DNA of 13,494 bases, taken from contig CAWGVG010000001.1 in NCBI GenBank assembly GCA_963825865.1, forward strand, positions 1 to 13,494, read 5' to 3'. Positions 171 through 13,494 of the stretch are shown piece after piece (positions within the stretch are counted from its first letter, which is position 1; every line of letters begins with the position of its first letter). The DNA is from an uncultured Nitrososphaeraceae archaeon (lineage in GTDB: Archaea > Thermoproteota > Nitrososphaeria > Nitrososphaerales > Nitrososphaeraceae). Below the pieces are notes generated by a model that made no database searches, was not told where the DNA came from, and was given only the letters and a program-made list of their open reading frames with translations. The translations under genes and the position numbers were made by a program.

Positions 171-1421
171 GTGCCAATAAACTCTGGCGATACTGCTTGG
201 ATGCTTATAGCTTCCAGCCTTGTATTATTGATGATTCCTGCTCTTCGGATTATTTGGAGCAGGATTACTACGGAGAAAGAATACAGTTTCCATCTTTATG
301 CAGATCTTTTTTTGGAATGGCACTTTTGAGTGTCATGTGGTTTATATTTGGGTTCAGTCTGACGTTTGGACCTGATTCTGCCAGGTCTTGTTGGCAATCT
401 AGATTGGACATTTCTTAAAGGTGTGCCTTTTGATAGTTCGCTTAAATATGCACCAACTATTCCGGGAGTTCTGTTTGTAAAATTCGAAATGATGTTTGCA
501 GTAATTACTCCATTATTGTTAACTGGAGCAATATAAGAGGAACGAATGAAGTTTAGTGCATATGTTCTTTTCATTGCAGATTTGGAGTTTTCTAATATAC
601 TATCCGCTCGTACACTGGATATGGGGTGCGGGTGGCTTGGTAAATTAGGAGTTTTTGACTTTGCAGGTGGAATTGTAATTCACACAAGTGCAGGAATGGG
701 AGCGCTTGCTGCACTTCTGGTCTTGGGAAAAGATCAAATTATGGTCCATCGATCATGGTTCCGCATAGTATACCAATTGCTGTTCTAGGATTTTCGCTTT
801 TATGGTTGGGTTGGTTTGGATTTAACGCTGGAAGTGCATTGGCTTCTGGTGGAGTAGCTGGAAATACTGTAATTGTTACACATATGGCTTCGGCGGTCTC
901 TGCTCTGGTATGGGTTGCACTTTCTTGGATGAGAACCCACAAACCGAGTGTAATCTGCAATAAATGGTGCTATAGCAGGTCTTGCTGGAATAACTCCTGC
1001 ATCAGGATACGTAAGCGTAGAACATGCCTTTGCAATTGGATTGGCTATCGGTGTTGCGTCATATATGGGAGTAATCTTTTTAAAAGAAAGGCTAAGGATA
1101 GATGATGCACTAGATGTAAGCTCAGTATATGGCATTGCTGGAATTATCGGATCTCTTGCAATTGGCATTTTTGCAAGCTCCCTAATAAACCCTGCAGGCC
1201 CAAACGGATTATTATTCGGTAATGCACATCAGCTTCTGGTTCAAGCTATAGGAGTTGGTGTCGCAGGAACATTGGGTTTTGGAGGAACTTTCATAATAAT
1301 GAAAGCCATAGATGTCTTGATAGGCGTTAGAGTTTCACATGAGACAGAAGAAAGGGGTCTTGACATTGAAGAACATGCTGAGCGTGCCTATACTGATGAA
1401 GGTGACTTTGAAAAGATCTAG
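171..1421 (+). CDS. amt: Ammonium transporter (Amt family), broken by about 7-8 lesions
   Basis: Joining frames from GTG 171 gives MPINSGDTAWMLIASSLVLLMIPAL..GLLRRKN..FMQIFFG..FEMMFAVITP..ERMKF..YYPLVHWIWG..DFAGGIVIHTSAG..LWLGWFGFNAGS..NGAIAGLAGITPASG..IDDALDVSSVYG..EERGLDIEEHAERAY, all Amt motifs. Breaks lie near 246, 310, 382, 535 (in-frame TAA), 580, 628, 731 and 955. ORFs 24..329, 197..418, 546..788, 755..1105 and 1041..1421 are fragments of this gene. Confidence 0.95.
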
Positions 1422-1581
1422 AATTTAAAGTTTAAAATAAAAACATCTGAGGCCCTATTTTTTCCACATCTTAATAACATTGTCATCAAATTCGAACCAT
1501 GACTACCTACCTATTTTTCAACCAACCAATATTTACATTACAAATAATAAATAATTGCTTTCCAATCCTCTTAATTGAACC

Positions 1582-1925
1582 CTATATTGCACTATCGCCA
1601 CTTTTCTTCGTGCCTATGTCGTAAGCTTCTGTAACATCGTAGACAAATATTTTGCCATCATAAGCTGAGCCTTATTTATAATATTTAGAATATCGTCTAT
1701 AATCTGCTTTGCTTGTGAATCTGAAACCAGTATTCAACCTTTGTTCCAAGCCCAAACTCTGGGACATATTTCATTACACCTGTGCCTACGTATATTGGTT
1801 CATTTTTCGAACGGCCTCTGACCTTTGATATCATAAAATGTCATACCACCGACATTGTGCTTATGGAGAACTTCATTTAGCTCTCCTACGCGTTCGTGAG
1901 GAATTATTATATCTAATCTTTTCAT
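1582..1925 (-). CDS. glnK: P-II family nitrogen regulatory protein (GlnB/GlnK-like), about 3 frameshifts, absent from ORF track
   Basis: Manual translation from ATG 1925: MKRLDIIIPHERVGELNEVLHKHNVGGMTFYDIKG/RGRSKNEPIYVGTGVMKYVPEFGLGTKVE/ILVSDSQAKQIIDDILNIIN/KGSAYDGKIFVYDVTEAYDIGTKKSGDSAI*. Shows the P-II features GxT..xKGRG, a T-loop, the B-loop DGKIFV and a length near 113 aa. Convergent with amt. Confidence 0.9.
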
Positions 1926-2059
1926 CACGAATTATCTTAGCATATAAACGTAAATAATACGGTTCCGTTAAGTTACTTATGTAAGTATATATGTATGACT
2001 TTTATTACCTACTGTTATTGCGTTGTATTAGTAACAAAGAAAGAAAGAAAAATCTATTT

Positions 2060-2996
2060 CTAGAAGTTAATATTTCCCATCTTGCCATTACGATAGTCTT
2101 CTATTGCTTGAAGAATCTCTTCTTTGGTATTCATAACAAATGGACCATACCTTGCTACTGGTTCATTTAATGGAATTCCTCCTATGAGAAGCAAATCGAG
2201 TGGAGATTTGAGTATTACTAGCAGAAGCATTGATTGCTACTCCTTCTCCAGCTTTATTAAACGTCACCATCTGTCCTGTCTTTGCAACCTTTTGCTTTTC
2301 TGCAGGTCCAAATAAACCTTCACCGTCGATAACATAAGCAAATGTATTATACTCATTTGGAATCGGCTGTATCAATTTAGCTCCTGATTGAAGAGTAAAG
2401 TGAAGATAAAAGATAGGAATTCGCGTGTCTATTACCGCCCTAGAACCTAATGCTTCTCCCGCAATAACCTTAACTTTGATGCTACCATCATCATTCTGCG
2501 CTACAGGAATCTTTGCAGAGAGAACATCTTGATACTTTGGCTTTATCATCTTATCACGCTGTGGCAAATTGACCCACAACTGGAATGCATGTAAGCTTCC
2601 GCCAGTACGTAGAAACTGCTTTTCTGGCATCTCAGAATGAACAACACCTGCTCCAGCTGTCATCCATTGTACATCACCTGGCCCAAGCTTTCCTGAGTTT
2701 CCTCTAGAATCTTTATGTTCAAACTTTCCCTCAAGCATATAGGTAACAGTCTCAAATCCTCGATGAGGATAATCTGGTGCTCCTTTTGCCTCACCTGGCT
2801 TCCAATCTTTAGAACCCATTTCATCTAATAGAAGAAATGGATCAAAATCCAAAAGAGCATTAGTTGGAAATGGCCTATGGACAACGAAGCCACCACCCTC
2901 TGTTGTCTCTTCACTGTCTATAATACGAGAAACAGAATGCAAATGATATTGTTGTTTATCTTGTTTATCCAAACTTGTTGTTTCTATTTTTGTCAT
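2060..2996 (-). CDS. Pirin family protein (bicupin), one frameshift near 2210
   Basis: [24 protein letters not shown](Y)[41 protein letters not shown]. The Pirin_C tail [40 protein letters not shown] continues in a shifted frame to TAG at 2060-2062. Confidence 0.93.
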
Positions 2997-3297: not shown

Positions 3298-4974
3298 TCA
3301 ATCAATAATTGGATAGTTCTTATCTATTTCTGTATCTTCTTTAATATTTATGGTTTGTACTATCTCAGAGTAGATTAATGGTGTTGTTATTGTTGCAGAT
3401 GTCACTGAAAGAACTAGACTTGCCAAGTCAATTCTATAATAATCAAGTTTATCGGGATCGTATCTTTGTACTACCTCGATATTTTCTCCTCTTTTTACTC
3501 TCTGTTGGATAACATTACGATGTACATAACTTGACACATACAAATACCCCCGACGTTTTGCCTCTTTAAGGAATTCTATTCTAAGAATATGCCCACCAGT
3601 TTCTCCCCAGAAACCTGGCTTGATGCTAATCCATTCCATATACGCAGTATTCTTCTCTCCAAAATTCTCATCATGTGTACCACGCCTTAGCTGGTAATTC
3701 TCTAATGGCCCTCCTTTTACATAACCAACAATTTGTATAGATGTGTTGTCGTCTTTAACCCTAAGGGTAAGTAGGATCGTATCTTTATGATTGAGAGATT
3801 TCTTGAATCTTTGTTCATCCTTAATGCCTATTGGAAGATGTAATTCTCTGTATATGTCAACCACAGTTTCTCGTATATTGGGATCAAGAATATGTTTATC
3901 GTCGTCATCGTCATTTTCAGTTTTTATCTCTTCGACTACGGGAATGAGACTTGTTTTATTTCTTCTAATTGAACTTCTTATGTCCACCTCCTTGGCCCAT
4001 GCCTGTTTGAACGCTGCTATATTTTCAAAAAAGTTTTTCTGATACTCATCTGGTACACTATATATTACACTTTCGAACATTTCTTTTTCCTCCTTTAACA
4101 TGCTGAAGTACTTGACAGACTCTTCATGTATACGTGATGGATGCCAACCAAGCGCATGGGCATTTGTGCGTGCAAGTTCCATAGAATGTTCAAGATTACC
4201 TAAAGCATAGCCTGCAATACGTTCCGAAACAGACAAGAACCAGCCTAAATTTTTATAATGTTTCCTTGTTTCAGTATCGCTTTCGTCTATACCTGCATAT
4301 GTAAATAATTCCTCCATTCTCTTTTCTGCATGCTCTGCTATCTTGCCTTTAAAGGGATATGCTGTTCTATGGATTATTGCAATTACTATATCGATATTAA
4401 TCCCAACACCATCAATGAACTTTCTTATTTTGCCATCATTTCTTATAAACCACTCAACAGCATCTTCATTTGGTTTGTCAGATTGCTTTAATGGATCATA
4501 GTCATGAAAAAGAGCGGCTATAAATAGATATTTTATGTCTTCACTGAATTTATCATTCTCTATGCCTAGTCCTTCTTCTTCTTCTTCTTTGTTCTGCTGT
4601 CCGTTGGCTGCAAGCAAAGTAAAGTAAGCAGCTTCTAATTCATGATCTATATTGTGATAACCATAATAATCAGATCCTAATCCTTTTTTTGAGAATTCAG
4701 ATACTGCATGCCTTATTATTCTATGGAGCCATCTGTCTTGTAAATCCATTGTAGTACCCAGTTGAATTATTTTATCTTTGATAACGGCTTCCTTGGCAAT
4801 GCCTATATTGTAACGTATCCACCAAGGAAATAGCTTTAGTCGTTTGTAAAACTGGTACCAAGCGGGCAGGGGCTCGGCTAAAGGATTAGAAGGGGATGAC
4901 GGTTGCAAATCATTGTTGATATTGCTATTGGAATCATAGTTATTATTATTATTAACTTTGACTTGGGGCGACAA
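3298..4974 (-). CDS. HD-superfamily metal-dependent phosphohydrolase (class I PDE-like motifs) fused to C-terminal GNAT-like domain
   Basis: Intact 558-aa ORF. GYHNIDHELE and AALFHDYDP resemble the YHNxxH..xLxHD motifs of HD/PDEase folds. The C-terminus IVGYVKG...AYMEWISIKPGFWGETGGHILRIEFLKEAKRRGYLYV has GNAT motif-A-like layout. TTATATA lies about 26 nt upstream (5000-5006). Confidence 0.8.
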   Translation of the reverse strand: MSPQVKVNNNNNYDSNSNINNDLQPSSPSNPLAEPLPAWYQFYKRLKLFPWWIRYNIGIAKEAVIKDKIIQLGTTMDLQDRWLHRIIRHAVSEFSKKGLGSDYYGYHNIDHELEAAYFTLLAANGQQNKEEEEEGLGIENDKFSEDIKYLFIAALFHDYDPLKQSDKPNEDAVEWFIRNDGKIRKFIDGVGINIDIVIAIIHRTAYPFKGKIAEHAEKRMEELFTYAGIDESDTETRKHYKNLGWFLSVSERIAGYALGNLEHSMELARTNAHALGWHPSRIHEESVKYFSMLKEEKEMFESVIYSVPDEYQKNFFENIAAFKQAWAKEVDIRSSIRRNKTSLIPVVEEIKTENDDDDDKHILDPNIRETVVDIYRELHLPIGIKDEQRFKKSLNHKDTILLTLRVKDDNTSIQIVGYVKGGPLENYQLRRGTHDENFGEKNTAYMEWISIKPGFWGETGGHILRIEFLKEAKRRGYLYVSSYVHRNVIQQRVKRGENIEVVQRYDPDKLDYYRIDLASLVLSVTSATITTPLIYSEIVQTINIKEDTEIDKNYPIID

Positions 4975-5262
4975 AAGTTGTTTATAATGATGACATTCAT
5001 ATATAAGAATATTTAGTGTTTAACCTGATCGTAATCAAATTATTATAATAAAATTTGATTATTGCTATTTTTCAGATATAATTGAATATATTTTGAAAAA
5101 ACATCTCTGCTATCAGCCTACAGAAGGTGAGTAATAAGCGCTAACTATCACAATGATTTACAACAGACTAATGTATTCTGCTTTTATGTATATTCAAAAC
5201 ATGGTGTGAGCCTAATAATAAATTTTCATTTATAAACTACTAGTGTAATAAGTTATAAAAAC

Positions 5263-5700
5263 TCGACTTCTGGTAAATATTTCAACAAAGGAGTAAAAGC
5301 ACCGTATGCTCCCCACATAGACCACATAGTAAGAGGAACCTCTGCTAAAATTATAGTATTTGGAAGAGGAGGAAACGAGAGATATATGATATATATATCT
5401 ATTTCAACAAGTTGGTGGAAGTGTTCTCATCGGTTTTAGAATGTATGGCATTATAAACAAGTATAAAGTCAGTACAAAGATCCCATTACCTACAAGTCGC
5501 AAAGACCCATGGCTGGGCCTGATAGAATAGATCTTAATTATGATAGGGAATATTCAAAGTCTCTTTTCAATAAAGGGGAGGACAAAGAATGATCACATAG
5601 GACATGTTATGAAAGAGCATATGACACGATAGTTGTTTTTGGAGATTCTAACTATAGATTTGACATTCCAAAGTTTAAGATTATAACAGTACAAAAGTTG
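5263..5700 (+). pseudogene. Decayed copy of the two PRC-barrel-like repeats found at the cyclase N-terminus
   Basis: Broken frames read SGKYFNKGVKAPYAPHIDHIVRGTSAKIIVFG..VGGSVLIGF..KYKVSTKIPLPT..YDREYSKSLFNKG..DHIGHVMKE..DTIVVFGDSNYRFDIPK. An identical 20-mer CACATAGGACATGTTATGAA occurs at 5594-5613 and 6084-6103. Confidence 0.8.
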
Positions 5701-5737
5701 TTAGCAAATTTTATTGCTTATTATATACATAATAACA

Positions 5738-7217
5738 ATGATGACTACTGGGAAGTACTTTAATAGAGGAGTAATGGCATTGGATTCTCCGTATCTTGGG
5801 CACGTAGTAAGAGAAACTTATGACAAGATAGTTGTATTCGGTGAAGGAAATGATAGGTACGATATCCCAAAGTCTGAAATTCAAACAACAGGCAGAAACG
5901 TGTTAATAGGTCTTAATCTATCCGAGATTGCAAAAAGGTATAAAGTAAACCGTCAAGAACCATTGCCTACAACTGTACCCATTAGAACATTGGACCCAAG
6001 GAGAAAATCTAGACTTGGCAACTTATGAGAGAAAATATCCAAAATCATTATTTAACAAGGGAGTAAGAGTGCTAAATGAAGACCACATAGGACATGTTAT
6101 GAAGGAAACTGATGACAAGGTGGTGATATTTGGTAGCTATGGCTATAGATTTGATGTTCCAAAATCAATGATTAAAGAAGTTGGAAGAAATGTCATTCTG
6201 AACATGGACTTTCCAGAACTAGCTGCAAAATATAAGGTAGATAGGAATGCAGAGTTACCAACAGGGGAGCCTATTGATAAGATAAATGATCAGGCATATC
6301 CTGAAGAAGACCATCAGGAGATTAAAGAAGAATATCAACACGAGGAGGCAATAAAAACAACAAAATCTGGTTTAGTTTATCCTGAAGAGGAGGAGAAAGA
6401 GAAGCAGCAGATCATCACCCAATCAATTGCCAACATGCTAATGGGCAATAATAGCGATAATTATGATTCTAAAAATATTAAATCGTCATCAATAGCAACC
6501 GCTGCAGTAGAGATAGTCGATTCAGAAACGCTAGTAACTCAGACACAAGATAGAATGTGGAAGGCATTAGAAGGCCATTATCGATACGATTCATCTCTAA
6601 AGGATAGTCAAGGTTTCCTTCTTAATCATGTAAATTCAAAGATTCCACTTGTAGTCATGTATGCAGATTTAGTTGGCTCAACTAATATGAGCATGACATT
6701 GCCTGCTGAGAAGATGGTTACCATAATCAGAGCATTCACATATGAAATGACTTGCATTGTGCGGAGCTATGGTGGTTATGTGCTAAAATATGTAGGCGAT
6801 GCAGTAATTGCTTTTTTTCCGTCTGGCTACAACAAATTACTGGCCTGTGATAAGGCAGTCCAATGCGCGAAATCAATGATAACTGTAATTAAAAACGGAA
6901 TTAATCCCATATTAAATAAGTATGATTATCCGGAACTTGGTGTTAAGATAGGCATAGATGAGGGCGAGAATGTAATCGTACAGTATGGACACGATAAAAG
7001 CTCCTTAATTGACATTCTTGGATATGGTATGAGTATAACTGCAAAAATAACTTCATTAACCAATCCCGACAAAATTACAATAGGTAAAGATGTCTATGAC
7101 ATATTGCACCCAGAAATTAAAAGCAAATTCGCAGAAATTAAATATAATGTTGACAACTGGAAATACGCTGATAGACGTACTGGCAGGCTTTACAAACTTT
7201 ACACATTAACAGATTAG
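5738..7217 (+). CDS. Class III adenylate/guanylate cyclase domain protein with two N-terminal PRC-barrel-like repeats, one frameshift near 5983
   Basis: Catalytic motifs VMYADLVGST (Asp 6666-6668), LKYVGDAVIAFF (Asp 6798-6800), VKIGIDEG, DILG..SITAK. ORFs 5714..6028 and 6015..7217 join if one base is removed near 5983 (…PTTVPIEHWTQGENLDLATYERKY…). Likely start is ATG 5738 or 5741. Confidence 0.88.
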
Positions 7218-7517
7218 AAGTTACAATGGGCTAGAAGAATATTCACCTCCGTATTACTGGCCTCCATTTATTTTGGTTGAGATTGGGAATAATAAAGGAA
7301 GATTATTGTAATCAATCCAATAAGTTATAGAGAAACTACCTTCACTACCTACACCAAAGCCTTTTTCGTGCTCAAATTTAGTCTTTGGTTATTAAAACAA
7401 GATAATAATTGTAGATTTGTCATAAAACGTAACGTTGACTTGTACCAAGAATAAAACAAATAAGAATCTAACATGATAACTGATTTGAAAAAATACAGGC
7501 TCGTATCTCTTGGCTAT

Positions 7518-7740
7518 TTACCTTAGCTGTTCTCTTTTAGCAACTTTTATTATTCTTTCCTTGGCTAATACCACTGCAGTTATCGCTATGTAAGCGACTA
7601 GTGCTAATTCGCATACCATATCGATCGCATTAACATCCCCAGCTCTTCAAGTAACAGGATTCCCAGGGAATCATGTTATTACATGTAATATTATGAAACC
7701 TACATTTCCTGCAATTCCTAATAATAATCACCTACCGTAA
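7518..7740 (-). pseudogene. Remnant of a small membrane protein gene
   Basis: One frame reads YGR*LLLGIAGNVGFIILHVIT*FPGNPVT*RAGDVNAIDMVCELALVAYIAITAVVLAKERIIK…*: two hydrophobic helices around a PGNPxT-R loop, with three in-frame TGA stops and no 5' part. Confidence 0.5.
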
Positions 7741-7792
7741 TTTTTAGGAGTAAACAACTAACGGTAACGTCTTCTTTTTTTATTTAGCAAAT

Positions 7793-8041
7793 CTAGCAAG
7801 CATTTAGTCTTAAAGTGAAGTTATCATCAATTTCAATTAGTCCAGATCCTTTGAATAAATCCCAAATATTTAGACTAAGATATTCAGGACCCAGTCCCTG
7901 AACCTGCATATGTACCTCTTCTTGAGTAAAAGTTGGGTCTCTTCTATTCTTGTATTTACGGCAAATTTCTCTTAATATATAGTTCATAACCTTCACTTTT
8001 ATCTCGGGATCTGAGTCGACATTTGATATTCTATCAAACAT
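7793..8041 (-). CDS. Small hypothetical protein (possibly winged-helix-like)
   Basis: 82-aa ATG ORF with natural-looking composition. The ending WDLFKGSGLIEIDDNFTLRL resembles a recognition helix plus wing. No family recognised. Confidence 0.5.
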   Translation of the reverse strand: MFDRISNVDSDPEIKVKVMNYILREICRKYKNRRDPTFTQEEVHMQVQGLGPEYLSLNIWDLFKGSGLIEIDDNFTLRLNAC

Positions 8042-8872
8042 TGCTCATATTGACTGCTTCCCGTTTAATTCTGTTGTGAAGTAGTTTCAAACATACACAA
8101 GCTTTAACCGAATTTCTGAATTGTATGTGTATCGATAGTCTTTAGCATAATATGGTAAAACGTATCGTTCTGTTCTAAATAAAATTCCATATATGCCTCT
8201 CTAGAGGGCAAAACACTTTCAACGTGTGACTGTGTGACTGGGTCACATGTTGTATATATGTATATAGATATTCACACTAATTTTATTGTGGTCGTAATAT
8301 AGTCCAATCTTTGACGCATTTATTAGGTACTATTTATCATTGAGAAAGTCCCACTATGTTTGGTCAAAGTATTGGTCACAGTTTACAATACTTTTGCTTG
8401 GAATGCGGTAACGAACTTACTAGTAAGTCAAGTAGAAGACTTATTGATATCGGTGGTTGTCACACTTCCCAGGAATGTCTAAAATGTGGCTACACATTAC
8501 TGTTTGGTACTATTAAGAAAAAGTCTAAGTAACAAATGGCAATGTGATGTAGATCTGGAGACCAACTCAGATAAGAGAAAAAGAGTCTACAAAGAAGTGA
8601 ATCAACATACATAGTCCTTAGAATTGAAATTTCTTAATTGTAAACATACTCTGCTTTCAGACCAACTGTTGATATACAATTAGGCAATATTTATCATTGT
8701 AAACAATGCAAATGCTTAAGGCAGGTTGCAATAATAATCAGATATAAGGCATCTCCTGGATAACACCATAAAAGCTGTTCATACATGAATACGTTTGGGC
8801 ATTCCCATTGCAGCTCTTCTACTTGAACTCATAATTTATCTGCCACATCTTTTTTTAAGAGAACATTACAAA

Positions 8873-10024
8873 ATGAAAGCTGTTGGTTTATACAAACACT
8901 TACCAATAGAAGATCCTCACTCTCTGGTTGACCTAGACGTTGAACAACCCAAGTATCCTACAGGTCATGATCTACTAGTTGCCATAACGGCAATTTCAGT
9001 AAATCCTGTAGATACTAAGGTCAGAAAAGGGACGATTCCTCCAATGGAAAATGAAAATATGCCGCGTATATTGGGATGGGATGCTGCTGGAGAAGTAGTA
9101 GCGGCTGGATCAGATTGTACACTTTTTGATGAAGGCGACACCGTTTACTATGCTGGCAGCATTTCTCGACCATTAGGAACAAACTGCGAATTTCATTTAG
9201 TAGACGAACGTATTGTTGGAAGAAAACCAAATTCACTCTCCTTTGAGGAAGCTGCTGCCATGCCCCTTACAACTATAACAGCCTGGGAGGCTCTATATGA
9301 TAGGTTATCTTTGTATTCAGACACTATAGGAAGGAAAACCGCCACACCACCAATAATGTTATCAACTTCAAATAATGGTACTGACGACAACAACAACAAC
9401 AACAAGAGATATCGTCCATCTATTCTTATCATAGGTGGTGCAGGAGGAGTTGGTTCCATAGCCACACAGCTTGCAAAAAACCTTGTAAACCACCACTCCC
9501 CTTCTTCATCGTCTTCATTCTCAGGAATCAATGTAATCACAACTGCATCTAGAAATGAATCTGTAGAATGGTGTAAGAAAATGGGTGCCGATTACGTGGT
9601 AAACCATCATGGCGATCTTAAATCTCAAATCAAGAAAGTTGTAGGTATTGATTATACAGACTACATTCTCTGTTTGAACAATACTGATGGTCATTTTGAT
9701 AGTATGGCTCAATTAGTTGCTCCACAAGGAAAGATATGCTCTATTGTTGAAACCAAGGCTCCTGTAGACCTAGGTGGTATACTACGGCAGAAAAGTGCTA
9801 CGTTTGTTTGGGAGCTCATGTTCACTAGGTCTCTATTCCAAACCCGCGATATGATAGCACAACATCACTTGCTCAACGCAGTAGCCGATCTTATTGATAG
9901 TAAGAAAATAAAAACTACTTTGACAGACCAGTTGTCTCCAATAAATGCAGAAAATCTGCGTAAGGCACACAAGAAGCTGGAATCTGGTAGAATGATTGGA
10001 AAGATTGCATTATCTGGCTTCTAA
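8873..10024 (+). CDS. Zinc-binding alcohol dehydrogenase family protein (MDR superfamily, quinone-oxidoreductase-like)
   Basis: True start is probably ATG 8873 (MKAVGLYKHLPI). Motifs AISVNPVDTKVR, ILGWDAAGEV, VYYAGSISRP, VDERIVGRKP, EAAAMPLTTITAWEAL, Rossmann IIGGAGGVGSIATQLAK, FVWELMFTRS, AHKKLESGRMIGKI. Confidence 0.93.
   Translation: MKAVGLYKHLPIEDPHSLVDLDVEQPKYPTGHDLLVAITAISVNPVDTKVRKGTIPPMENENMPRILGWDAAGEVVAAGSDCTLFDEGDTVYYAGSISRPLGTNCEFHLVDERIVGRKPNSLSFEEAAAMPLTTITAWEALYDRLSLYSDTIGRKTATPPIMLSTSNNGTDDNNNNNKRYRPSILIIGGAGGVGSIATQLAKNLVNHHSPSSSSSFSGINVITTASRNESVEWCKKMGADYVVNHHGDLKSQIKKVVGIDYTDYILCLNNTDGHFDSMAQLVAPQGKICSIVETKAPVDLGGILRQKSATFVWELMFTRSLFQTRDMIAQHHLLNAVADLIDSKKIKTTLTDQLSPINAENLRKAHKKLESGRMIGKIALSGF
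9388..9405 (+). repeat. (CAA)n microsatellite encoding a poly-Asn loop insertion
   Basis: CAACAACAACAACAACAA within the oxidoreductase, translated as DNNNNNK. Confidence 0.7.
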
Positions 10025-10166: not shown

Positions 10167-10742
10167 TCATTGTATGAGGTCCTTATACCTAAAGCAGTAG
10201 ACAGTATGATCGTTTACCATTCCCACAGCCTGCATCATAGAATAACAAATGGTTGACCCTACGAATACAAAGCCTCTTCTCTTCAGATCGTTGCTTAGCA
10301 CATCAGATATTTCTGTTCTTGAAGGAATCTCTATCCATCTTTTCCACCCATTATGTTTCGGTCTGCCATCAACGAAATTCCAAAGATATGAGTCGAAGCT
10401 CCCAAATTCTTGCTGTAATTTTAGGAAAGCTCTGGCGTTCGTTATAGTAGATTGAATTTTCAATCTATTTCTTATGATAGATGGATTGGTAAGTAGCTCT
10501 TGAATCCTTCTTTGATCATAATTGGCTACCCTGTTTGCATCAAAATCATCAAATGCTTTTCTATATCCTTCTCTCTTCTTGAGTATTATCGACCAACTTA
10601 GACCAGCTTGTGCGGATTCGAGTAATAAGAATTCAAACAGCTTCTTATCACTATGCACTGGAACACCCTATTCATCGTCATGATATTCAATATCAGTTGG
10701 ACTACCGTTAGCGGCCCATTCACAACGAAGTTTAACACGCAT
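10167..10742 (-). pseudogene. tag: DNA-3-methyladenine glycosylase I with premature amber codon at codon 25
   Basis: From ATG 10742: MRVKLRCEWAANGSPTDIEYHDDE*GVPVHSDKKLFEFLLLESAQAGLSW…IIRNRLKI…FVGSTICYSMMQAVGMVNDHTVYC. The Trp of conserved YHDxEWG is TAG (10668-10670). The frame is otherwise intact (191 codons) and all four Zn ligands (C, H, H, C) are present. Confidence 0.9.
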
Positions 10743-10899
10743 ATGATGATTTGAAGGAACTATGGTTTTCTGAATATATGTAATTGTATTTAATATTTGA
10801 AATATATCTCCTCCTTGTTGCCTTCTGATTTTGTAATAACACACAGAAACGTATCTAATTAAAATATGACTCTCTATGTCCTAGGATATAACACTTTGA

Positions 10900-11514
10900 G
10901 CGTGTGAGTGTACCATCCCTGTCACTGGATATGATCACGGCTGCAAGGATGCAAAGATTTCTCCATTCTCAGATAGATACATTGCCCAGCCCACAAGAGG
11001 TCCACAATTCCACACAAAGGAGTTTAATACTGGTTACAATGTTGGATTAAGAGCTTGCAGCAATGTTCTAGAAGGAGTACCAGCAGATCAGCTATTACAA
11101 GGTGATAATGATAATGATAATGATCAAAATCAGGGAAAAGCTCAGGAATCGAAGAGCTCTAGCGCTTCAGGTAGTACTAGTTCAAGTAGTGCAAGTAACA
11201 ACAATCAGATAATAATTAACAACAATATCCAATCTAAAGAACTCAAGACTGGAAAAGCACTGGGATTTAGAGAAGAGCCAACACAGTCGGCTTGCGCAGG
11301 ACTGGAAGGTACTGAAGGAGATAACGGATATGATCAGGGATATGTAGATGCACATGTTCACTTCTCAAAACATAAAGGCTTTGACAGTGACCCAGGTAAC
11401 AGACATAGCGCAGAATACAATAAACAATATGTCAACGGATATAATGATGGTTGGGTAGATGCTAAGAATGGAGTACAAGACCCAAGTGCTAACCTAGATG
11501 TTCGCTGGATTTGA
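10900..11514 (+). CDS. Start-less 204-codon open frame: GYxxG-repeat protein with low-complexity linker (5'-truncated or frameshifted), absent from ORF track
   Basis: Stop-free from 10900 to TGA 11512-11514: TGYDHGCKDAKISPFSDRYIAQPTRGPQFHTKEFNTGYNVGLRACS…GDNDNDNDQNQG…SSSASGSTSSSSASNNN…GYDQGYVDA…HSAEYNKQYVNGYNDGWVDAKNG…. No in-frame ATG/GTG/TTG. Confidence 0.7.
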   Translation, partial: ACECTIPVTGYDHGCKDAKISPFSDRYIAQPTRGPQFHTKEFNTGYNVGLRACSNVLEGVPADQLLQGDNDNDNDQNQGKAQESKSSSASGSTSSSSASNNNQIIINNNIQSKELKTGKALGFREEPTQSACAGLEGTEGDNGYDQGYVDAHVHFSKHKGFDSDPGNRHSAEYNKQYVNGYNDGWVDAKNGVQDPSANLDVRWI

Positions 11515-11956
11515 GACATTGATAGAAATCTACCAAGGTTGCTATTTCGATGAAGAAACAGTGGTATTCTTGAATTTCTTAAAACGAGATATATTGTATA
11601 TGTTAGTCTAACATACTTAGATTCCTTCGATATCCAGAGTGAGGTGCACTTATCTCATTAATACAGATTTCTGACAAAACTCATAAAAGCGCTTTCTTCT
11701 TTCACATATCTCGCATTTGTCTTCTGAATATGACGCCAGTGCTGTTTTCGCAGCAAAGGAGCGTAGTACTATAACAAGCAAATGATAGAAATTTTATTTA
11801 ATGAAAGGAGCCTGTTTGTATATCATCTCATATCAACAGCTTTGTATCATAAATTATATTTGTAAACTAAATTGGCCTAAAATGATAGGTCATAGAAGAA
11901 TAGATTTAGTTAAATACATCTTATCTAGTAACTTGCTGTGCTGACTAAGTTATCAA

Positions 11957-12587
11957 ATGGCAATAATAGAAATACTTAGGCCCATAGTAGAATTTATTAC
12001 CTCAATTATATCTACCATGAGCTATCCCGGAATTTTTTTTCTTATGATACTAGAAAGTGCCTTGATTCCTATACCAAGTGAAATCATAATGCCATTTTCA
12101 GGTTTTCTTGCTTCAACTGGAAAGCTGAGTTCCGTAGGTGTTGTCCTAGCTGGGTACTTTTGGAAATCTTGTTGGTTCCATCTTAACCTATTACTTTGGA
12201 ATAAATGTAGGAAGAGCTTTTTTAATAAAATATGGTAGATACGTATTTTTTAAAAAAGAACACCTCGAGCTTACAGAGAATTTATTTAAAAGATACGGAG
12301 ATAAAGTTTCCTTTGTTGGCAGGTTATTGCCAGGTATTAGAACATATGTTTCACTACCAGCAGGAATAGGAAAAGCCAAATTTACAAAGTTTGTGATCTA
12401 TACTTTTCTTGGATTTATAATCTGGAATTCCATGCTAACATATGTGGGTATGAAACTTGGAAGTAATTGGAAAAATATTGACAAGTACTCTATATATTTA
12501 GATTTAGCAGCAGTAATAGCAATTGCAGTTTTTTTAATATGGTTTGTATATAATAGCAGAAGAAAATCCAAGGCAATTGGAAGATAG
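11957..12587 (+). CDS. dedA: DedA family membrane protein, one frameshift at GGG 12152-12154
   Basis: YPGIFFLMILESALIPIPSEIIMPFSGFL, then (shifted frame) GTFGNLVGSILTYYFG…FKRYGDKVSFVGRLLPGIRTYVSLPAGI…FVIYTFLG. These are canonical DedA/SNARE-associated motifs. Confidence 0.92.
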
Positions 12588-12645: not shown

Positions 12646-13444
12646 ATTGCATATCCATATAAATATCGAGGATCATCCAGTTCATCGAGGTCTATTCTGC
12701 GATTTAAAAAACTAAAAATCCAAGCAGCAATCCTGACAATTGTTGTTATGATTGTAGTAATGTCTAAATCTGTAGTTATCATATAAGCAGGACATAGAGG
12801 AGGTTTGTCCTTTACGTTGGGGCAATCGAGAATAGAATTTTAGGAGAAGGCGTGCACTTTATCATACCATTTGTTGAAAAAGTGATGCAGCTAGAAGTAC
12901 TTACATTAAAGTTGCAAGCTGATGCGTCGACTGCTTCAAATGACCCAAAAGAAGTGGCAACCGTTATAGCATTGAATTACCACATCGATATGCAAAATTC
13001 AACGCCGAAGAACTCATAACAAAAAGAGAAACCGCGAAACGGGCTGCTATCCGTAATACTCTCTTAACAAGAGACATAAATTTTGAGGACGTATTTATAA
13101 CTGACTTCAAATTCTCAGAAGCATTTGCAGGTCAGGTTGAATCAAAAGTAGTAGCATTTCAAAAATATTTGACTGAACAAAACAATCTAAAGGCTGTTCA
13201 TTTAGTAGATAATCAGACAGTTGTTCAAGCACAAGCACAAGCAAGAGCAAATATGGCTACAGCATTTGGTGAAGGACAGACAATCAGCATAATTACCGAA
13301 CAGCTTAGACAAAGTCCACAGTATTTGCAATGGCAATTTATCAATAGATACGATAGACTGATGTCAGATTCTCTTGGAAGAAGCGATAGTGGATTTCCAT
13401 TTTTCCAATTATCGCAACAAGAATCTCAAAACCCAACCGGATAA
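12646..13444 (+). pseudogene. Prohibitin/SPFH (band 7) family protein, decayed
   Basis: N-terminal TM segment AAILTIVVMIVVM, then SVVII*AGHRG (TAA 12784-12786), frameshift near 12803, LYVGAIENRILGEGVHFIIPFVEKV…ASND..V.TVIALNYHID, an apparent deletion near 12990, KFNAEELITKRE…VFITDFKFSEAFAGQVESKVVA…AQAQARAN…YLQWQ. ORF 13169..13444 is the C-terminal fragment. Start position is approximate. Confidence 0.85.
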
Positions 13445-13494
13445 TAAAACATACACGCTCACTATAAATTGAAGGTCATCCCAAACCAGATTCC

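What the first reader, a model, noticed from the sequence alone, without database searches (positions are those of the whole stretch)
3298..7217. Head-to-head nucleotide cyclase and HD(PDE-like)-GNAT fusion: candidate archaeal cyclic-nucleotide signalling module
Seen: a class III cyclase and a protein with YHNxxH…HD motifs plus a GNAT-like tail are divergently transcribed across a shared region. Established: class III cyclases make cNMPs; class I cyclic-nucleotide phosphodiesterases use an HD fold with YHN..H..HD; cAMP-controlled protein acetyltransferases exist in mycobacteria as cNMP-binding + GNAT fusions. Inferred: the pair may synthesise and then degrade or sense a cyclic nucleotide and convert it into an acetylation output. 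Second-messenger signalling is poorly characterised in ammonia-oxidising archaea.
Basis: partly seen in the sequence, partly recalled or inferred. Interest (0 to 1): 0.75.

Follow-up and report, generated by a model that had tools for sequence, protein, structure and literature searches.

The report
Archaeal PDE-like–acetyltransferase gene beside a cyclase
A soil ammonia-oxidising archaeon carries, back to back, a cyclic-nucleotide-making enzyme and an uncharacterised protein that joins a domain shaped like animal cyclic-nucleotide phosphodiesterases to an acetyltransferase-type domain, giving a testable candidate for how archaea make, break and read out cAMP.

Summary
ORF 3298-4974 (-) is an intact 558-aa protein. 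Its N-terminal helical domain is closest, by fold (Z 14.8-16.8) and by weak profile matches, to class I 3',5'-cyclic-nucleotide phosphodiesterases. Its C-terminal domain has a GNAT fold. The divergent gene is a class III cyclase, but it starts at 5738, not 6015. It has two PRC-barrel-like N-terminal repeats and is split in this assembly by one extra C at 5978-5980. Near-identical contigs from three other DNA runs lack that base.

The PDE-like-GNAT family (about 1300 sequences, all unnamed) appears confined to Nitrososphaeraceae and close kin. It was found only in genomes that also carry these cyclases. A cyclase lies next to it in 7 of 20 related loci. Its orientation varies and no other neighbour is shared. 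The more distant relatives show no such linkage.

The histidines and acidic residues expected to bind metal are invariant, so a working phosphohydrolase is likely, but its substrate is untested. A paralogue joins the same domain to a methyltransferase and is not cyclase-linked.

Verdict: a plausible but unproven cNMP make-break-output module, and a new variant of a known kind. None of five literature searches returned a paper describing this family.

The parts
3298..4974 (-). Gene for the 558-aa PDE-like HD + GNAT fusion protein (TTG start is the first start in the ORF; the exact start is uncertain because residues 1-28 are low-complexity and disordered)
   Evidence: ORF; 1299 homologues, full-length at 91-95% identity; AF2 model pLDDT 82
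3964..4857 (-). Class-I-PDE-like HD phosphohydrolase domain (aa ~40-337). Putative metal and acid residues are H107, H111, H157, D158 and E251
   Evidence: VIA-align Z 14.8-16.8 to PDE5/9/8/7/4/3/2/1 over ~235 residues; profile vs PDB E 0.002 to PDE5 over YHN..H...HD; residues invariant across two paralogous families; Atlas 15 of 30 nearest clusters in the PDEase_I set
3415..3957 (-). GNAT-fold acyltransferase domain (aa ~340-520) with a glycine-rich beta4-alpha3 loop (WGETGG)
   Evidence: Foldseek E 1.4e-5 to GNAT acetyltransferases; VIA Z 12-13.8; phmmer hits to proteins with above-threshold Pfam Acetyltransf_1; three family members carry precomputed PF00583
3298..3414 (-). Disordered C-terminal linker ending in a conserved short tail (…DKNYPIID)
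   Evidence: pLDDT <50 for residues 523-558; tail conserved in the alignment
4975..5737 (.). Divergent intergenic region (763 bp, about 30% G+C) between the two starts; includes decayed domain copies
5266..5697 (+). Two decayed, frame-broken copies of the cyclase's ~90-aa N-terminal domain (5266-5497 and ~5512-5697). An orthologue (P0273, 581 aa) still reads a third copy here
   Evidence: tblastn; P0273 sequence; a contig of run X6 skips 5268-5333
5738..7217 (+). Class III nucleotidyl cyclase gene, about 493 aa when read as in orthologues; split in this assembly by one extra C
   Evidence: Orthologues P0271 (493 aa, 97%) and P0275 (489 aa) start MMTTGKYF and read through the junction
5978..5980 (+). 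CCC run holding one base more than in all other near-identical contigs; it causes the frame change between ORFs 5714-6028 and 6015-7217
   Evidence: 'left out 1' at 5978 in the single covering contig of each of X1, X2 and X6 (three studies); net -1 in the X15 contig (table 4)
5765..6236 (+). Two tandem small beta-rich N-terminal domains (PRC-barrel-like lead), the presumed sensor or interaction modules
   Evidence: AF2 strands 11-57 and 108-154 of P0271; JGI names 'YlmC with PRC-barrel domain'; Atlas DUF2171/PRC leads at 0.91-0.92; no Pfam hit
6516..7214 (+). Class III cyclase homology domain. Metal Asp x2 and the Lys/Asp pair are present; the transition-state Asn is Ser and the Arg is Lys
   Evidence: Pfam PF00211 E 6e-12; VIA Z 23.4/23.3/22.1 to 8jsf, 3r5g, 1wc1; residue alignment to CyaC 1wc0; paralogue motifs

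Best explanation
The two genes are a cyclic-nucleotide 'make and break' pair with an acyl-transfer output.

- The cyclase has two PRC-barrel-like input domains, a linker and a class III catalytic domain. The catalytic domain carries the Lys/Asp pair typical of adenylyl cyclases. It makes a 3',5'-cNMP, most likely cAMP, in response to an unknown input.
- The divergently encoded 558-aa protein binds that nucleotide in its class-I-PDE-like, metal-dependent HD domain and hydrolyses it to the 5'-NMP.
- Its fused GNAT domain transfers an acyl group from acyl-CoA to an unknown protein or small-molecule acceptor. Its activity is plausibly coupled to occupancy of the PDE site.

Shown here: the domain folds, conservation of the predicted metal-binding residues, recurrent gene adjacency, phyletic co-occurrence, and a cNMP-binding-domain protein elsewhere in the genome.

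Inferred: the substrate of each enzyme, any coupling between the two domains, and co-regulation from the shared region.
For: 1. Fold. The 17 best of 48,161 chains are all class I cNMP PDEs (Z 14.8-16.8, about 235 aligned residues, model residues 50-330). The first generic HD hydrolase scores Z 12.1.
2. Sequence.
   - A profile of both paralogous families hits 89 PDB sequences at E<=1. Of the best 60 shown, 59 are class I PDEs, best E 0.002, aligned over YHN..H...HD.
   - 15 of 56 family members touch Pfam PDEase_I and 19 of 56 touch HD, all below cut-off.
   - 15 of the 30 nearest Atlas clusters belong to the PDEase_I set.
3. Active site. H107, H111, H157 and D158 are invariant in 32 sequences that are only 17-25% identical between the two families. 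Position 251 is always acidic in that alignment. This argues for catalysis.
4. Adjacency. A class III cyclase lies within about 0.3-0.75 kb of the HD-GNAT gene in 7 of 20 related loci, from six genomes.
   - Its orientation varies: divergent in four, upstream on the same strand in two, downstream in one.
   - In the 18 loci scanned, no other Pfam family is shared among the seven cyclase-linked loci.
   - My chance estimate, from copy numbers and genome sizes, is 0.33 of 18 loci.
5. Phyletic pattern. HD-GNAT occurs in 20 of 28 cyclase-bearing genomes and in 0 of 13 genomes without the cyclase.
6. Cyclase. Pfam is above cut-off and the fold scores Z 23. Both metal Asp residues and the Lys/Asp pair are present.
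7. Gene state. The cyclase is intact in other samples.
8. Receptor. G000 encodes a cNMP_binding domain at 58.9 bits against a cut-off of 27.5.
9. RNA. Contigs of a soil metatranscriptome library cover parts of both genes at 95-99% identity. This is weak evidence, because DNA can be present in such libraries.
Against: - Adjacency is absent in nine loci with 2-8 kb of flank on both sides (L018, 19, 21, 22, 25, 26, 27, 31, 32), including all relatives below about 52% identity. The seven linked loci are kin, not independent events.
- Eight cyclase-bearing genomes lack HD-GNAT.
- The domain scores below the Pfam PDEase_I cut-off. It has Pro where class I PDEs have the second His of the signature as I recall it.
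- The purine-recognising Gln and the hydrophobic clamp could not be located.
- The paralogue with the same domain is fused to a TrmB-like methyltransferase. It has no cyclase within about 1.5 kb in 14 loci, so the domain need not be tied to cNMPs.
- The cyclase has Ser for the transition-state Asn and Lys for the Arg. Its best structural match is tied between a cytidylate cyclase and adenylyl cyclases. Activity and product are therefore open.
- In this assembly the cyclase frame is broken.
Confidence: 0.45

Rival explanations
1. The HD domain is an active phosphohydrolase for a substrate other than a signalling cNMP. Candidates are a nucleotide, an RNA 2',3'-cyclic or 5'-phosphate end, or a phosphorylated metabolite. 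It would work in series with the fused transferase, as a 'process then modify' enzyme. The cyclase would be a neighbour only through lineage-limited synteny.
For: - The same domain is fused to a TrmB-like Methyltransf_4 domain in a 705-850-aa paralogue. That paralogue was seen in 23 of 25 family genomes and has no cyclase nearby in 14 loci.
- Two different group-transfer partners suggest a shared chemical step rather than shared signalling.
- The PDE signature's second His is missing and Pfam PDEase_I is not reached.
- Linkage to the cyclase is lost in nine well-flanked loci.
Against: - Every characterised protein among the top structural matches is a 3',5'-cNMP phosphodiesterase.
- No other HD family appears among the best 60 PDB profile hits.
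- Cyclase adjacency survives changes of orientation and of all other neighbours.
- HD-GNAT was never found in a genome without the cyclases.
Confidence: 0.3
2. The PDE-like domain acts mainly as the cNMP receptor of a cNMP-gated acyltransferase, with slow hydrolysis serving as a reset timer. Functionally this parallels the mycobacterial cAMP-dependent protein acetyltransferase, but with a PDE fold in place of a cNMP-binding domain.
For: - The fusion is fixed, with the two domains predicted as one compact unit (pTM 0.81).
- The cyclase family is very large (17 catalytic-domain tblastn hits in G000) against only two cNMP_binding matches. That leaves room for unconventional receptors.
- The cyclase is a recurrent neighbour.
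Against: - The full set of predicted catalytic residues is invariant. That is what a hydrolase needs, not a pure sensor.
- No evidence of allostery can be obtained from sequence.
- All the points raised against a cNMP substrate apply here too.
Confidence: 0.12
3. There is no functional relation. Two unrelated genes happen to be adjacent in a repeat-rich, decaying region, and the cyclase is a pseudogene in this genome.
For: - The cyclase frame is broken at 5978-5980.
- Decayed domain copies lie upstream.
- ORF-poor stretches of the window share repeats with other contigs.
- Cyclase-family matches are very numerous per genome (26 in G000).
Against: - Three DNA runs from three studies carry the intact frame at 99-100% identity, so the break is an assembly error or private to this strain.
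- Observed adjacency is 7 of 20 related loci, against about 0.33 expected by chance over the 18 loci counted.
Confidence: 0.1

Closest known systems
Class I 3',5'-cyclic-nucleotide phosphodiesterases (Pfam PDEase_I, PF00233; e.g. PDE5A 1t9r/9lss, PDE9A 3qi3, PDE8A 3ecm, RhoPDE 5vyd, Leishmania PDEB1 2r8q)
   Same: - All-helical catalytic fold over about 235 aligned residues, Z up to 16.8.
- The YHNxxH ... HD block aligns residue for residue with PDE5.
- A conserved acidic residue lies in a later helix. In the paralogue it sits in an A-D-L-S-like context.
   Different: - Only 10-16% identity.
- Below the Pfam cut-off.
- Pro replaces the His that follows HD-x-x in PDEs (the signature is recalled).
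- The nucleotide-recognising Gln was not identified.
- It is archaeal and fused to a GNAT domain. The regulatory modules usually found with PDEs (GAF, PAS, UCR, rhodopsin) are recalled, not checked here.
cAMP-regulated protein lysine acetyltransferase of mycobacteria (cNMP-binding domain + GNAT; recalled, not retrieved here)
   Same: A cNMP-related domain fused N-terminally to a GNAT domain, in an organism with many class III cyclases.
   Different: The sensor there is a CAP-type cNMP-binding domain with no hydrolytic activity. Here it is a PDE-like HD domain with an apparently complete catalytic site. No sequence relation between the two GNAT domains was tested.
Bacterial class III cyclases: Spirulina CyaC (1wc0/1wc1), P. 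aeruginosa CyaB (3r5g), Cya2 (2w01); Pycsar cytidylate/uridylate cyclases (8jsf, 7r65, 8jsz)
   Same: Cyclase homology domain, E 2e-11 to 1e-10 by sequence and Z 19-23.4 by fold. Both metal Asp residues and the substrate Lys are conserved.
   Different: - Asn to Ser and Arg to Lys at the transition-state positions. The Lys is family-wide in this genome, and the Ser alternates with Asn among paralogues.
- The N-terminal modules are two PRC-barrel-like repeats, a pairing I found named only in automatic JGI annotations.
In-genome paralogue: unknown N-domain + PDE-like HD + Methyltransf_4 (G000:C57, L033:3184-5301, 705 aa)
   Same: The same HD domain, with EYHNFHH and LLHDYDP and the same invariant residues. 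It gives sub-threshold hits to PDEase_I positions 1-45 and to HD.
   Different: Its partner enzyme is different (a SAM methyltransferase, E 4.8e-6). It has a long insert after the HD motif. It was found in 23 of 25 family genomes rather than 17. No cyclase neighbour was seen in 14 loci.

Membership tests
Class I cNMP phosphodiesterase (PF00233) | Pfam PDEase_I match above the gathering score | tested here: not met
   No hit for the window protein at E<=0.1. 15 of 56 family members hit at E<=1, best 1.2e-3, all below cut-off. A genome scan finds only the paralogue, at 18.6 bits against a cut-off of 24.8.
Class I cNMP phosphodiesterase (PF00233) | Characteristic all-helical catalytic-domain fold | tested here: met
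   The top 17 of 48,161 chains are class I PDEs, Z 14.8-16.8, rmsd 3.6-4.8, 228-248 aligned. PDE5A reaches Foldseek E 6.7e-4, TM 0.56 on the target. This rests on a predicted model (pLDDT 82).
Class I cNMP phosphodiesterase (PF00233) | Metal-site residues: H (acid) and H in YHNxxH, HD, and a distal Asp | tested here: inconclusive
   H107, H111, H157 and D158 align to the PDE5 YHN..H and HD residues and are invariant. The distal ligand is inferred to be the always-acidic position 251 (E here, D in many). That inference comes from conservation only, with no structural superposition of side chains.
Class I cNMP phosphodiesterase (PF00233) | Signature HD-x-x-H-x-G/A (recalled from memory, not from a call) | tested here: not met
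   The window has HDYDPLK. In the HMMER alignment Pro lies where PDE5 has His.
Class I cNMP phosphodiesterase (PF00233) | Hydrolysis of 3',5'-cAMP or cGMP; purine-binding Gln and hydrophobic clamp | not testable with these tools
   Needs an enzyme assay or a superposition with coordinates.
HD superfamily (PF01966) | H...HD...D metal-binding pattern on a helical core | tested here: met
   The motifs are present and invariant. 19 of 56 members hit Pfam HD at sub-threshold level, best 2.7e-4. The generic HD hydrolase 2pq7 scores Z 12.1.
GNAT superfamily (PF00583 clan) | GNAT alpha/beta fold with a beta4-alpha3 pyrophosphate-binding loop | tested here: met
   Foldseek E 1.4e-5, prob 1.00 to 2r7h and many other acetyltransferases. 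Z is 12-13.8 over residues 340-525. Strand 443-446, the glycine-rich loop WGETGG and helix 456-474 are in the model.
GNAT superfamily (PF00583 clan) | Pfam Acetyltransf_1 above the gathering score | tested here: inconclusive
   The window protein scores 19.0 bits against 20.7. 25 of 56 members hit at E<=1. Three close family members carry a precomputed PF00583 hit. phmmer links the region to proteins with strong PF00583.
GNAT superfamily (PF00583 clan) | Acyl-CoA-dependent acyl transfer; identity of the acceptor | not testable with these tools
   Structural neighbours are tied (within 1 Z unit) between N-acetyltransferases, AHL synthases and an N-acyl amino acid synthase. No subfamily can be assigned.
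Class III nucleotidyl cyclase (PF00211) | Pfam match above cut-off and cyclase homology fold | tested here: met
   45.9 bits against 21.9. Z is 23.4, 23.3 and 22.1 to 8jsf, 3r5g and 1wc1.
Class III nucleotidyl cyclase (PF00211) | Two metal-binding Asp residues; substrate Lys and Asp (adenine) pair | tested here: met
   In the alignment to CyaC 1wc0, YADLVGST and KYVGDA match, and Asp lies at the CyaC Thr position. The roles of these residues are from established knowledge of the family (recalled).
Class III nucleotidyl cyclase (PF00211) | Transition-state Asn and Arg | tested here: not met
   Ser and Lys align with the Asn and Arg of CyaC (MSITAK against VNIAAR). Paralogues in G000 have Asn or Ser, and always Lys where the motif is covered.
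Class III nucleotidyl cyclase (PF00211) | Intact reading frame | tested here: inconclusive
   The frame is broken in the window by an extra C. It is intact in contigs of runs X1, X2 and X6, and net-intact in X15. These were contigs, not raw reads.

The most novel reading that the evidence does not exclude
Soil ammonia-oxidising archaea use a PDE-fold domain as a built-in cNMP receptor and timer on effector enzymes. Binding of cAMP in the PDE-like pocket would switch on the fused acyltransferase, and in the paralogue a methyltransferase. Hydrolysis would switch it off again. That would make a self-resetting second-messenger output with no counterpart among described bacterial or eukaryotic cNMP effectors, and the first cAMP effector pathway defined in archaea.
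Probability: 0.12. Interest if true: 0.85.

Novelty: new variant of a known kind. Interest (0 to 1): 0.6.

Why it matters
- A 2023 review of archaeal second messengers (PMC10249747, passages read) makes three points. 3',5'-cAMP is present in archaea. No protein that makes, degrades or binds it has been characterised. Its function there is unknown.
- Nitrososphaeraceae are dominant soil nitrifiers and carry large families of class III cyclases (PMC13577086, passages read).
- The only thaumarchaeal PDE mentioned in the papers I found is the CpdA type (PMC9289680, passages read).
- An abundant, conserved and unnamed family with a class-I-PDE-like fold, fused to an acyltransferase and repeatedly placed beside a cyclase, gives a concrete three-part system to assay: cyclase, PDE and output. 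If active on cAMP it would be an archaeal class-I-like PDE.
- It would also bear on where the eukaryote-type PDE fold occurs outside eukaryotes.

Tried and rejected
- **Pfam and NCBIfam on the window proteins** named neither the HD domain nor the cyclase's N-domain.
- **The representative search** found only 185 clusters, mostly fragments. There were no distant named relatives of the HD part. Only the GNAT part reached outside the family.
- **The profile search of the 5.8-billion-protein set with A3** returned only the family itself in the 120 rows shown. The tail of its 1466 hits was not visible, so no bridge to true PDEase_I proteins was obtained.
- **Earlier findings of this scan** gave nothing relevant.
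- **Other window genes as conserved neighbours:** pirin, Zn-ADH and ORF 7793-8041 are found in none of the 20 related loci.
- **NitrOD2** (PMC5847659, passages read) was considered for the multi-copy N-domain. Rejected, because the Pfam scan at E<=10 does not list it.
- **tRNA and Rfam scans** of the window found nothing.
Their PRC-barrel assignment rests on automatic names and Atlas leads only.
- **Complex prediction** was not used, because no claim of binding between the two proteins is made.
- **Archaeal promoter elements** in 4975-5737 were not analysed. The promoter tool covers sigma-70-type sites only.
- **One literature query** was rejected for a term of more than four words. It was not resent in that form. 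The searches followed.

Full report
**Setting.** The window is the whole of contig C1 of a 4.98-Mb, 62-contig genome that is 82% complete. Its proteins' named homologues come from Nitrososphaeraceae and Thermoproteota metagenome bins. They are flanked by a pirin gene (2163-2996, -) and a zinc-type alcohol dehydrogenase gene (8795-10024, +).

**The 558-aa protein.**
- Pfam gives only a sub-threshold GNAT match (19.0 bits, cut-off 20.7) and no HD match.
- The protein has 1299 homologues in the 5.8-billion-protein set. Nearly all are 'hypothetical', and several are 91-95% identical over 100% of the length, so the gene is intact.
- At 50% clustering there are only 185 representatives, mostly fragments. 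The family is narrow.
- An AlphaFold2 model built from 56 sequences has pLDDT 82 and pTM 0.81. It shows a helical domain (helices 38-337), an alpha/beta domain (342-516) and disordered ends.
- A Foldseek-independent search of 48,161 PDB representatives ranks 17 class I 3',5'-cyclic-nucleotide phosphodiesterases first. They are PDE5, 9, 8, RhoPDE, Leishmania PDEB1, PDE7, 4, 3, 2, yeast PDE2, PDE1 and T. cruzi PDEC. Z is 14.8-16.8, rmsd 3.6-4.8 A, with 228-248 aligned residues spanning model residues about 50-330.
- The first non-PDE HD protein appears at Z 12.1. The tool warns that helical proteins can reach Z 13-14 by chance. These values lie above that range, and the list is homogeneous.
- Residues 340-525 match GNAT-fold enzymes at Z 12-13.8 and Foldseek E 1.4e-5. 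N-acetyltransferases, AHL synthases and an N-acyl amino acid synthase are tied, so no GNAT subfamily can be named.

**Sequence-level support for the PDE likeness.**
- A profile of the family hits PDE5 first in the PDB, at E 0.03, over YHNxxH ... HD.
- I found a second family with the same motifs. It is a 705-850-aa protein seen in 23 of 25 genomes of the window's family. In G000 it reads as an unknown N-domain, then the PDE-like HD (Pfam PDEase_I E 0.0011, positions 1-45; HD E 0.0031), then Methyltransf_4 (E 4.8e-6).
- A joint profile of both families (32 sequences) hits 89 PDB sequences at E<=1. Of the best 60 shown, 59 are class I PDEs and one is a designed protein; best E is 0.002.
- Scanned one by one, 15 of 56 family members touch PDEase_I, 19 touch HD and 25 touch Acetyltransf_1, all below the cut-offs.
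- 15 of the 30 nearest ESM Atlas clusters belong to the PDEase_I set.
- In the joint alignment H107, H111, H157, D158, T204, P207 and Y256 are invariant. Position 251 is always acidic: E in the window, D in many members, and D within an A-D-L-S-like context in the paralogue.
- The first four residues align with the PDE5 residues of YHN..H and HD. As I recall, these are the general acid and the metal ligands.
- The His that follows HD-x-x in PDEs is Pro here.

My conclusion is that this is a remote, probably catalytically competent, class-I-PDE-like HD domain. It is not a member of PF00233 by Pfam's own criterion.

**The cyclase.**
- The 400-aa ORF has Guanylate_cyc at 45.9 bits.
- Its 4185 homologues are mostly 470-510 aa. 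The orthologues P0271 (493 aa, 97% identity) and P0275 start at the position of ATG 5738 and read straight through the junction of ORFs 5714-6028 and 6015-7217.
- The window has CCC at 5978-5980 where a CC would keep the frame.
- Near-identical contigs of three DNA runs from three studies (X1, X2, X6, one covering contig each) lack one base at 5978. A contig from an RNA library (X15) has a net -1 change there.
- The break is therefore an assembly error or private to this strain. Raw reads were not available.
- The orthologue model (pLDDT 71.5) shows two small beta-rich domains (residues about 10-72 and 108-166), a disordered linker (183-260) and the catalytic domain.
- The catalytic domain matches a cytidylate cyclase (8jsf, Z 23.4), P. 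aeruginosa CyaB (Z 23.3) and Spirulina CyaC (Z 22.1).
- In the alignment to CyaC, both metal Asp residues and the substrate Lys are conserved, and an Asp occupies the second specificity position. As I recall, this Lys/Asp pair is the one adenylyl cyclases carry.
- The transition-state Asn is Ser and the Arg is Lys. Among the 17 catalytic-domain tblastn hits in G000, Lys is constant where the motif is covered and Asn alternates with Ser.
- The N-terminal repeats have no Pfam match. JGI's automatic names say 'YlmC with PRC-barrel domain', and the Atlas gives DUF2171/PRC leads at 0.91-0.92.
- This domain is also encoded by many stand-alone ORFs of about 160-280 aa in these genomes.
- Two decayed copies lie between the genes, at 5266-5497 and about 5512-5697. 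The orthologue P0273 still reads a third copy there.

**Linkage.** I fetched up to 8 kb on each side of 20 HD-GNAT loci from 16 related genomes and searched them with the window's proteins.
- A cyclase catalytic domain lies next to HD-GNAT in 7 loci, with gaps of about 0.3-0.75 kb.
  - Divergent: L013, L015, L020, L023.
  - Upstream on the same strand: L014, L017.
  - Downstream on the same strand: L028.
- Six of these cyclases are 57-83% identical to the window's catalytic domain. L023's is 35% identical.
- Nine loci with 2-8 kb on both sides have none (L018, L019, L021, L022, L025, L026, L027, L031, L032). Four contigs are too short to judge fully (L016, L024, L029, L030).
- A Pfam scan of 103 neighbouring ORFs in 18 loci shows no other family shared among the seven cyclase-linked loci. 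Pirin and the ADH are found in none.
- From per-genome match counts (which overcount) and genome sizes, I estimate 0.33 chance adjacencies in 18 loci.
- The linked loci are the closer relatives (HD-GNAT identity 53-75%). All loci below about 52% identity are unlinked. The events are not independent, although the changes of orientation and of all other neighbours argue against plain inherited synteny.

**Phyletic pattern.** Among 41 genomes, the cyclase is found in all 25 of the window's family and in 3 of 16 other families of the order. True HD-GNAT matches occur in 17 of those 25 and in the same 3 other families. None occurs in the 13 genomes without the cyclase. The methyltransferase paralogue has no cyclase within about 1.5 kb in 14 loci. 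The second, broken HD-GNAT copy of G000 (C33) has none within 3-4 kb.

**Context for signalling.**
- G000 encodes a cNMP_binding domain at 58.9 bits (cut-off 27.5), plus one weaker match.
- Contigs of a soil metatranscriptome library cover parts of both genes (4012-4562, 5819-6402) at 95-99% identity. The tool notes that this does not prove transcription.

**Literature.**
- A 2023 review (PMC10249747, passages read) makes three points. cAMP is present in archaea. No enzyme that makes, degrades or binds it has been characterised there. Archaeal proteins annotated as cAMP phosphodiesterases are untested.
- PMC13577086 (passages read) lists class III adenylate cyclases among clusters conserved in Nitrososphaeraceae.
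- PMC9289680 (passages read) discusses only CpdA-type PDEs in Thaumarchaeota.
- Five searches returned no paper describing a class-I-like PDE or a PDE-GNAT fusion in archaea. The library omits most subscription journals, so this is not proof of absence.

**Weighing.**
- The domain assignments are solid, at about 0.9.
- The functional reading, a cNMP make-and-break pair with an acyl-transfer output, is the best single explanation at about 0.45. Four things support it: the specifically PDE-like fold, the conserved catalytic set, recurrent adjacency through rearrangement, and strict co-occurrence with the cyclases.
- The main rival, at about 0.3, is a phosphohydrolase for another substrate working with its fused transferase. 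It is favoured by the methyltransferase paralogue and by the loss of linkage in distant relatives.
- A receptor-timer role for the PDE-like domain (about 0.12) is the boldest reading that is not excluded.
- Chance adjacency or a dead cyclase (about 0.1) is disfavoured.

Overall this is a new variant of a known kind of system. It sits in a lineage and a domain of life where that kind of system has no characterised component.

Noticed in passing
window 5978-5980: An extra C in a C-run breaks the cyclase frame in this assembly only. This suggests that single-base indel errors may exist elsewhere in the genome, so 'stops inside' other matches may partly be artefacts.
   Followed up: yes
window 5266-5697: Two decayed copies of the ~90-aa PRC-barrel-like domain lie upstream of the cyclase. 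A contig of run X6 skips 5268-5333 (66 nt), so this stretch varies between populations.
   Followed up: partly
G000:C57:69186-71351 (L033:3184-5301, -) and L035-L047: A conserved 705-850-aa protein has an unknown N-terminal 250-390 aa, then a PDE-like HD domain with a long insert, then a TrmB-like Methyltransf_4 domain. It was seen in 23 of 25 family genomes. A phosphohydrolase joined to an N7-type methyltransferase hints at RNA-end chemistry. Its function is unknown.
   Followed up: partly
G000:C33:15235-16696 (L034:3245-4709): A second HD-GNAT copy, 61-65% identical, is interrupted by a frame change near residue 154 and by a TAG. There is no cyclase within 3-4 kb. Cyclase fragments lie about 6.5 kb upstream, at C33:8073-8743.
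   Followed up: partly
related genomes, one search list (e.g. G014:C1:187027-187302, G001:C1:61069-61371): The cyclase's N-terminal domain occurs as many stand-alone ORFs of about 160-280 aa per genome, 60-85% identical to the window's copy. It is a lineage-specific multi-copy domain family with no Pfam model matching it.
   Followed up: no
window 1421-2163, 7217-8795, 10658-11957, 12780-13494: Stretches without long ORFs share translated similarity (50-98%) with several other contigs of the genome. They look like dispersed repeats or gene remnants. No tRNA or Rfam family was found in the window.
   Followed up: partly
window 3298-3414 (aa 523-558 of the HD-GNAT protein): A disordered linker is followed by a short, strongly conserved C-terminal tail (…DKNYPIID). 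It could be a docking motif, but the partner is unknown.
   Followed up: no
window 4571: The X1 contig carries an in-frame CTT insertion in the Glu-rich low-complexity loop between the YHN..H and HD motifs. The length of that loop also varies widely among homologues.
   Followed up: no
G000:C20:4942-5202 (-): A 359-aa ORF with a bona fide cNMP_binding domain (58.9 bits) is a conventional cNMP receptor candidate in the same genome. Its other domains were not examined.
   Followed up: no
L027:11479-12435 and L027:9703-10005: In one relative, the HD-GNAT gene lies about 2 kb from a histone-deacetylase-family gene and next to a P-II gene. This was seen once only.
   Followed up: no
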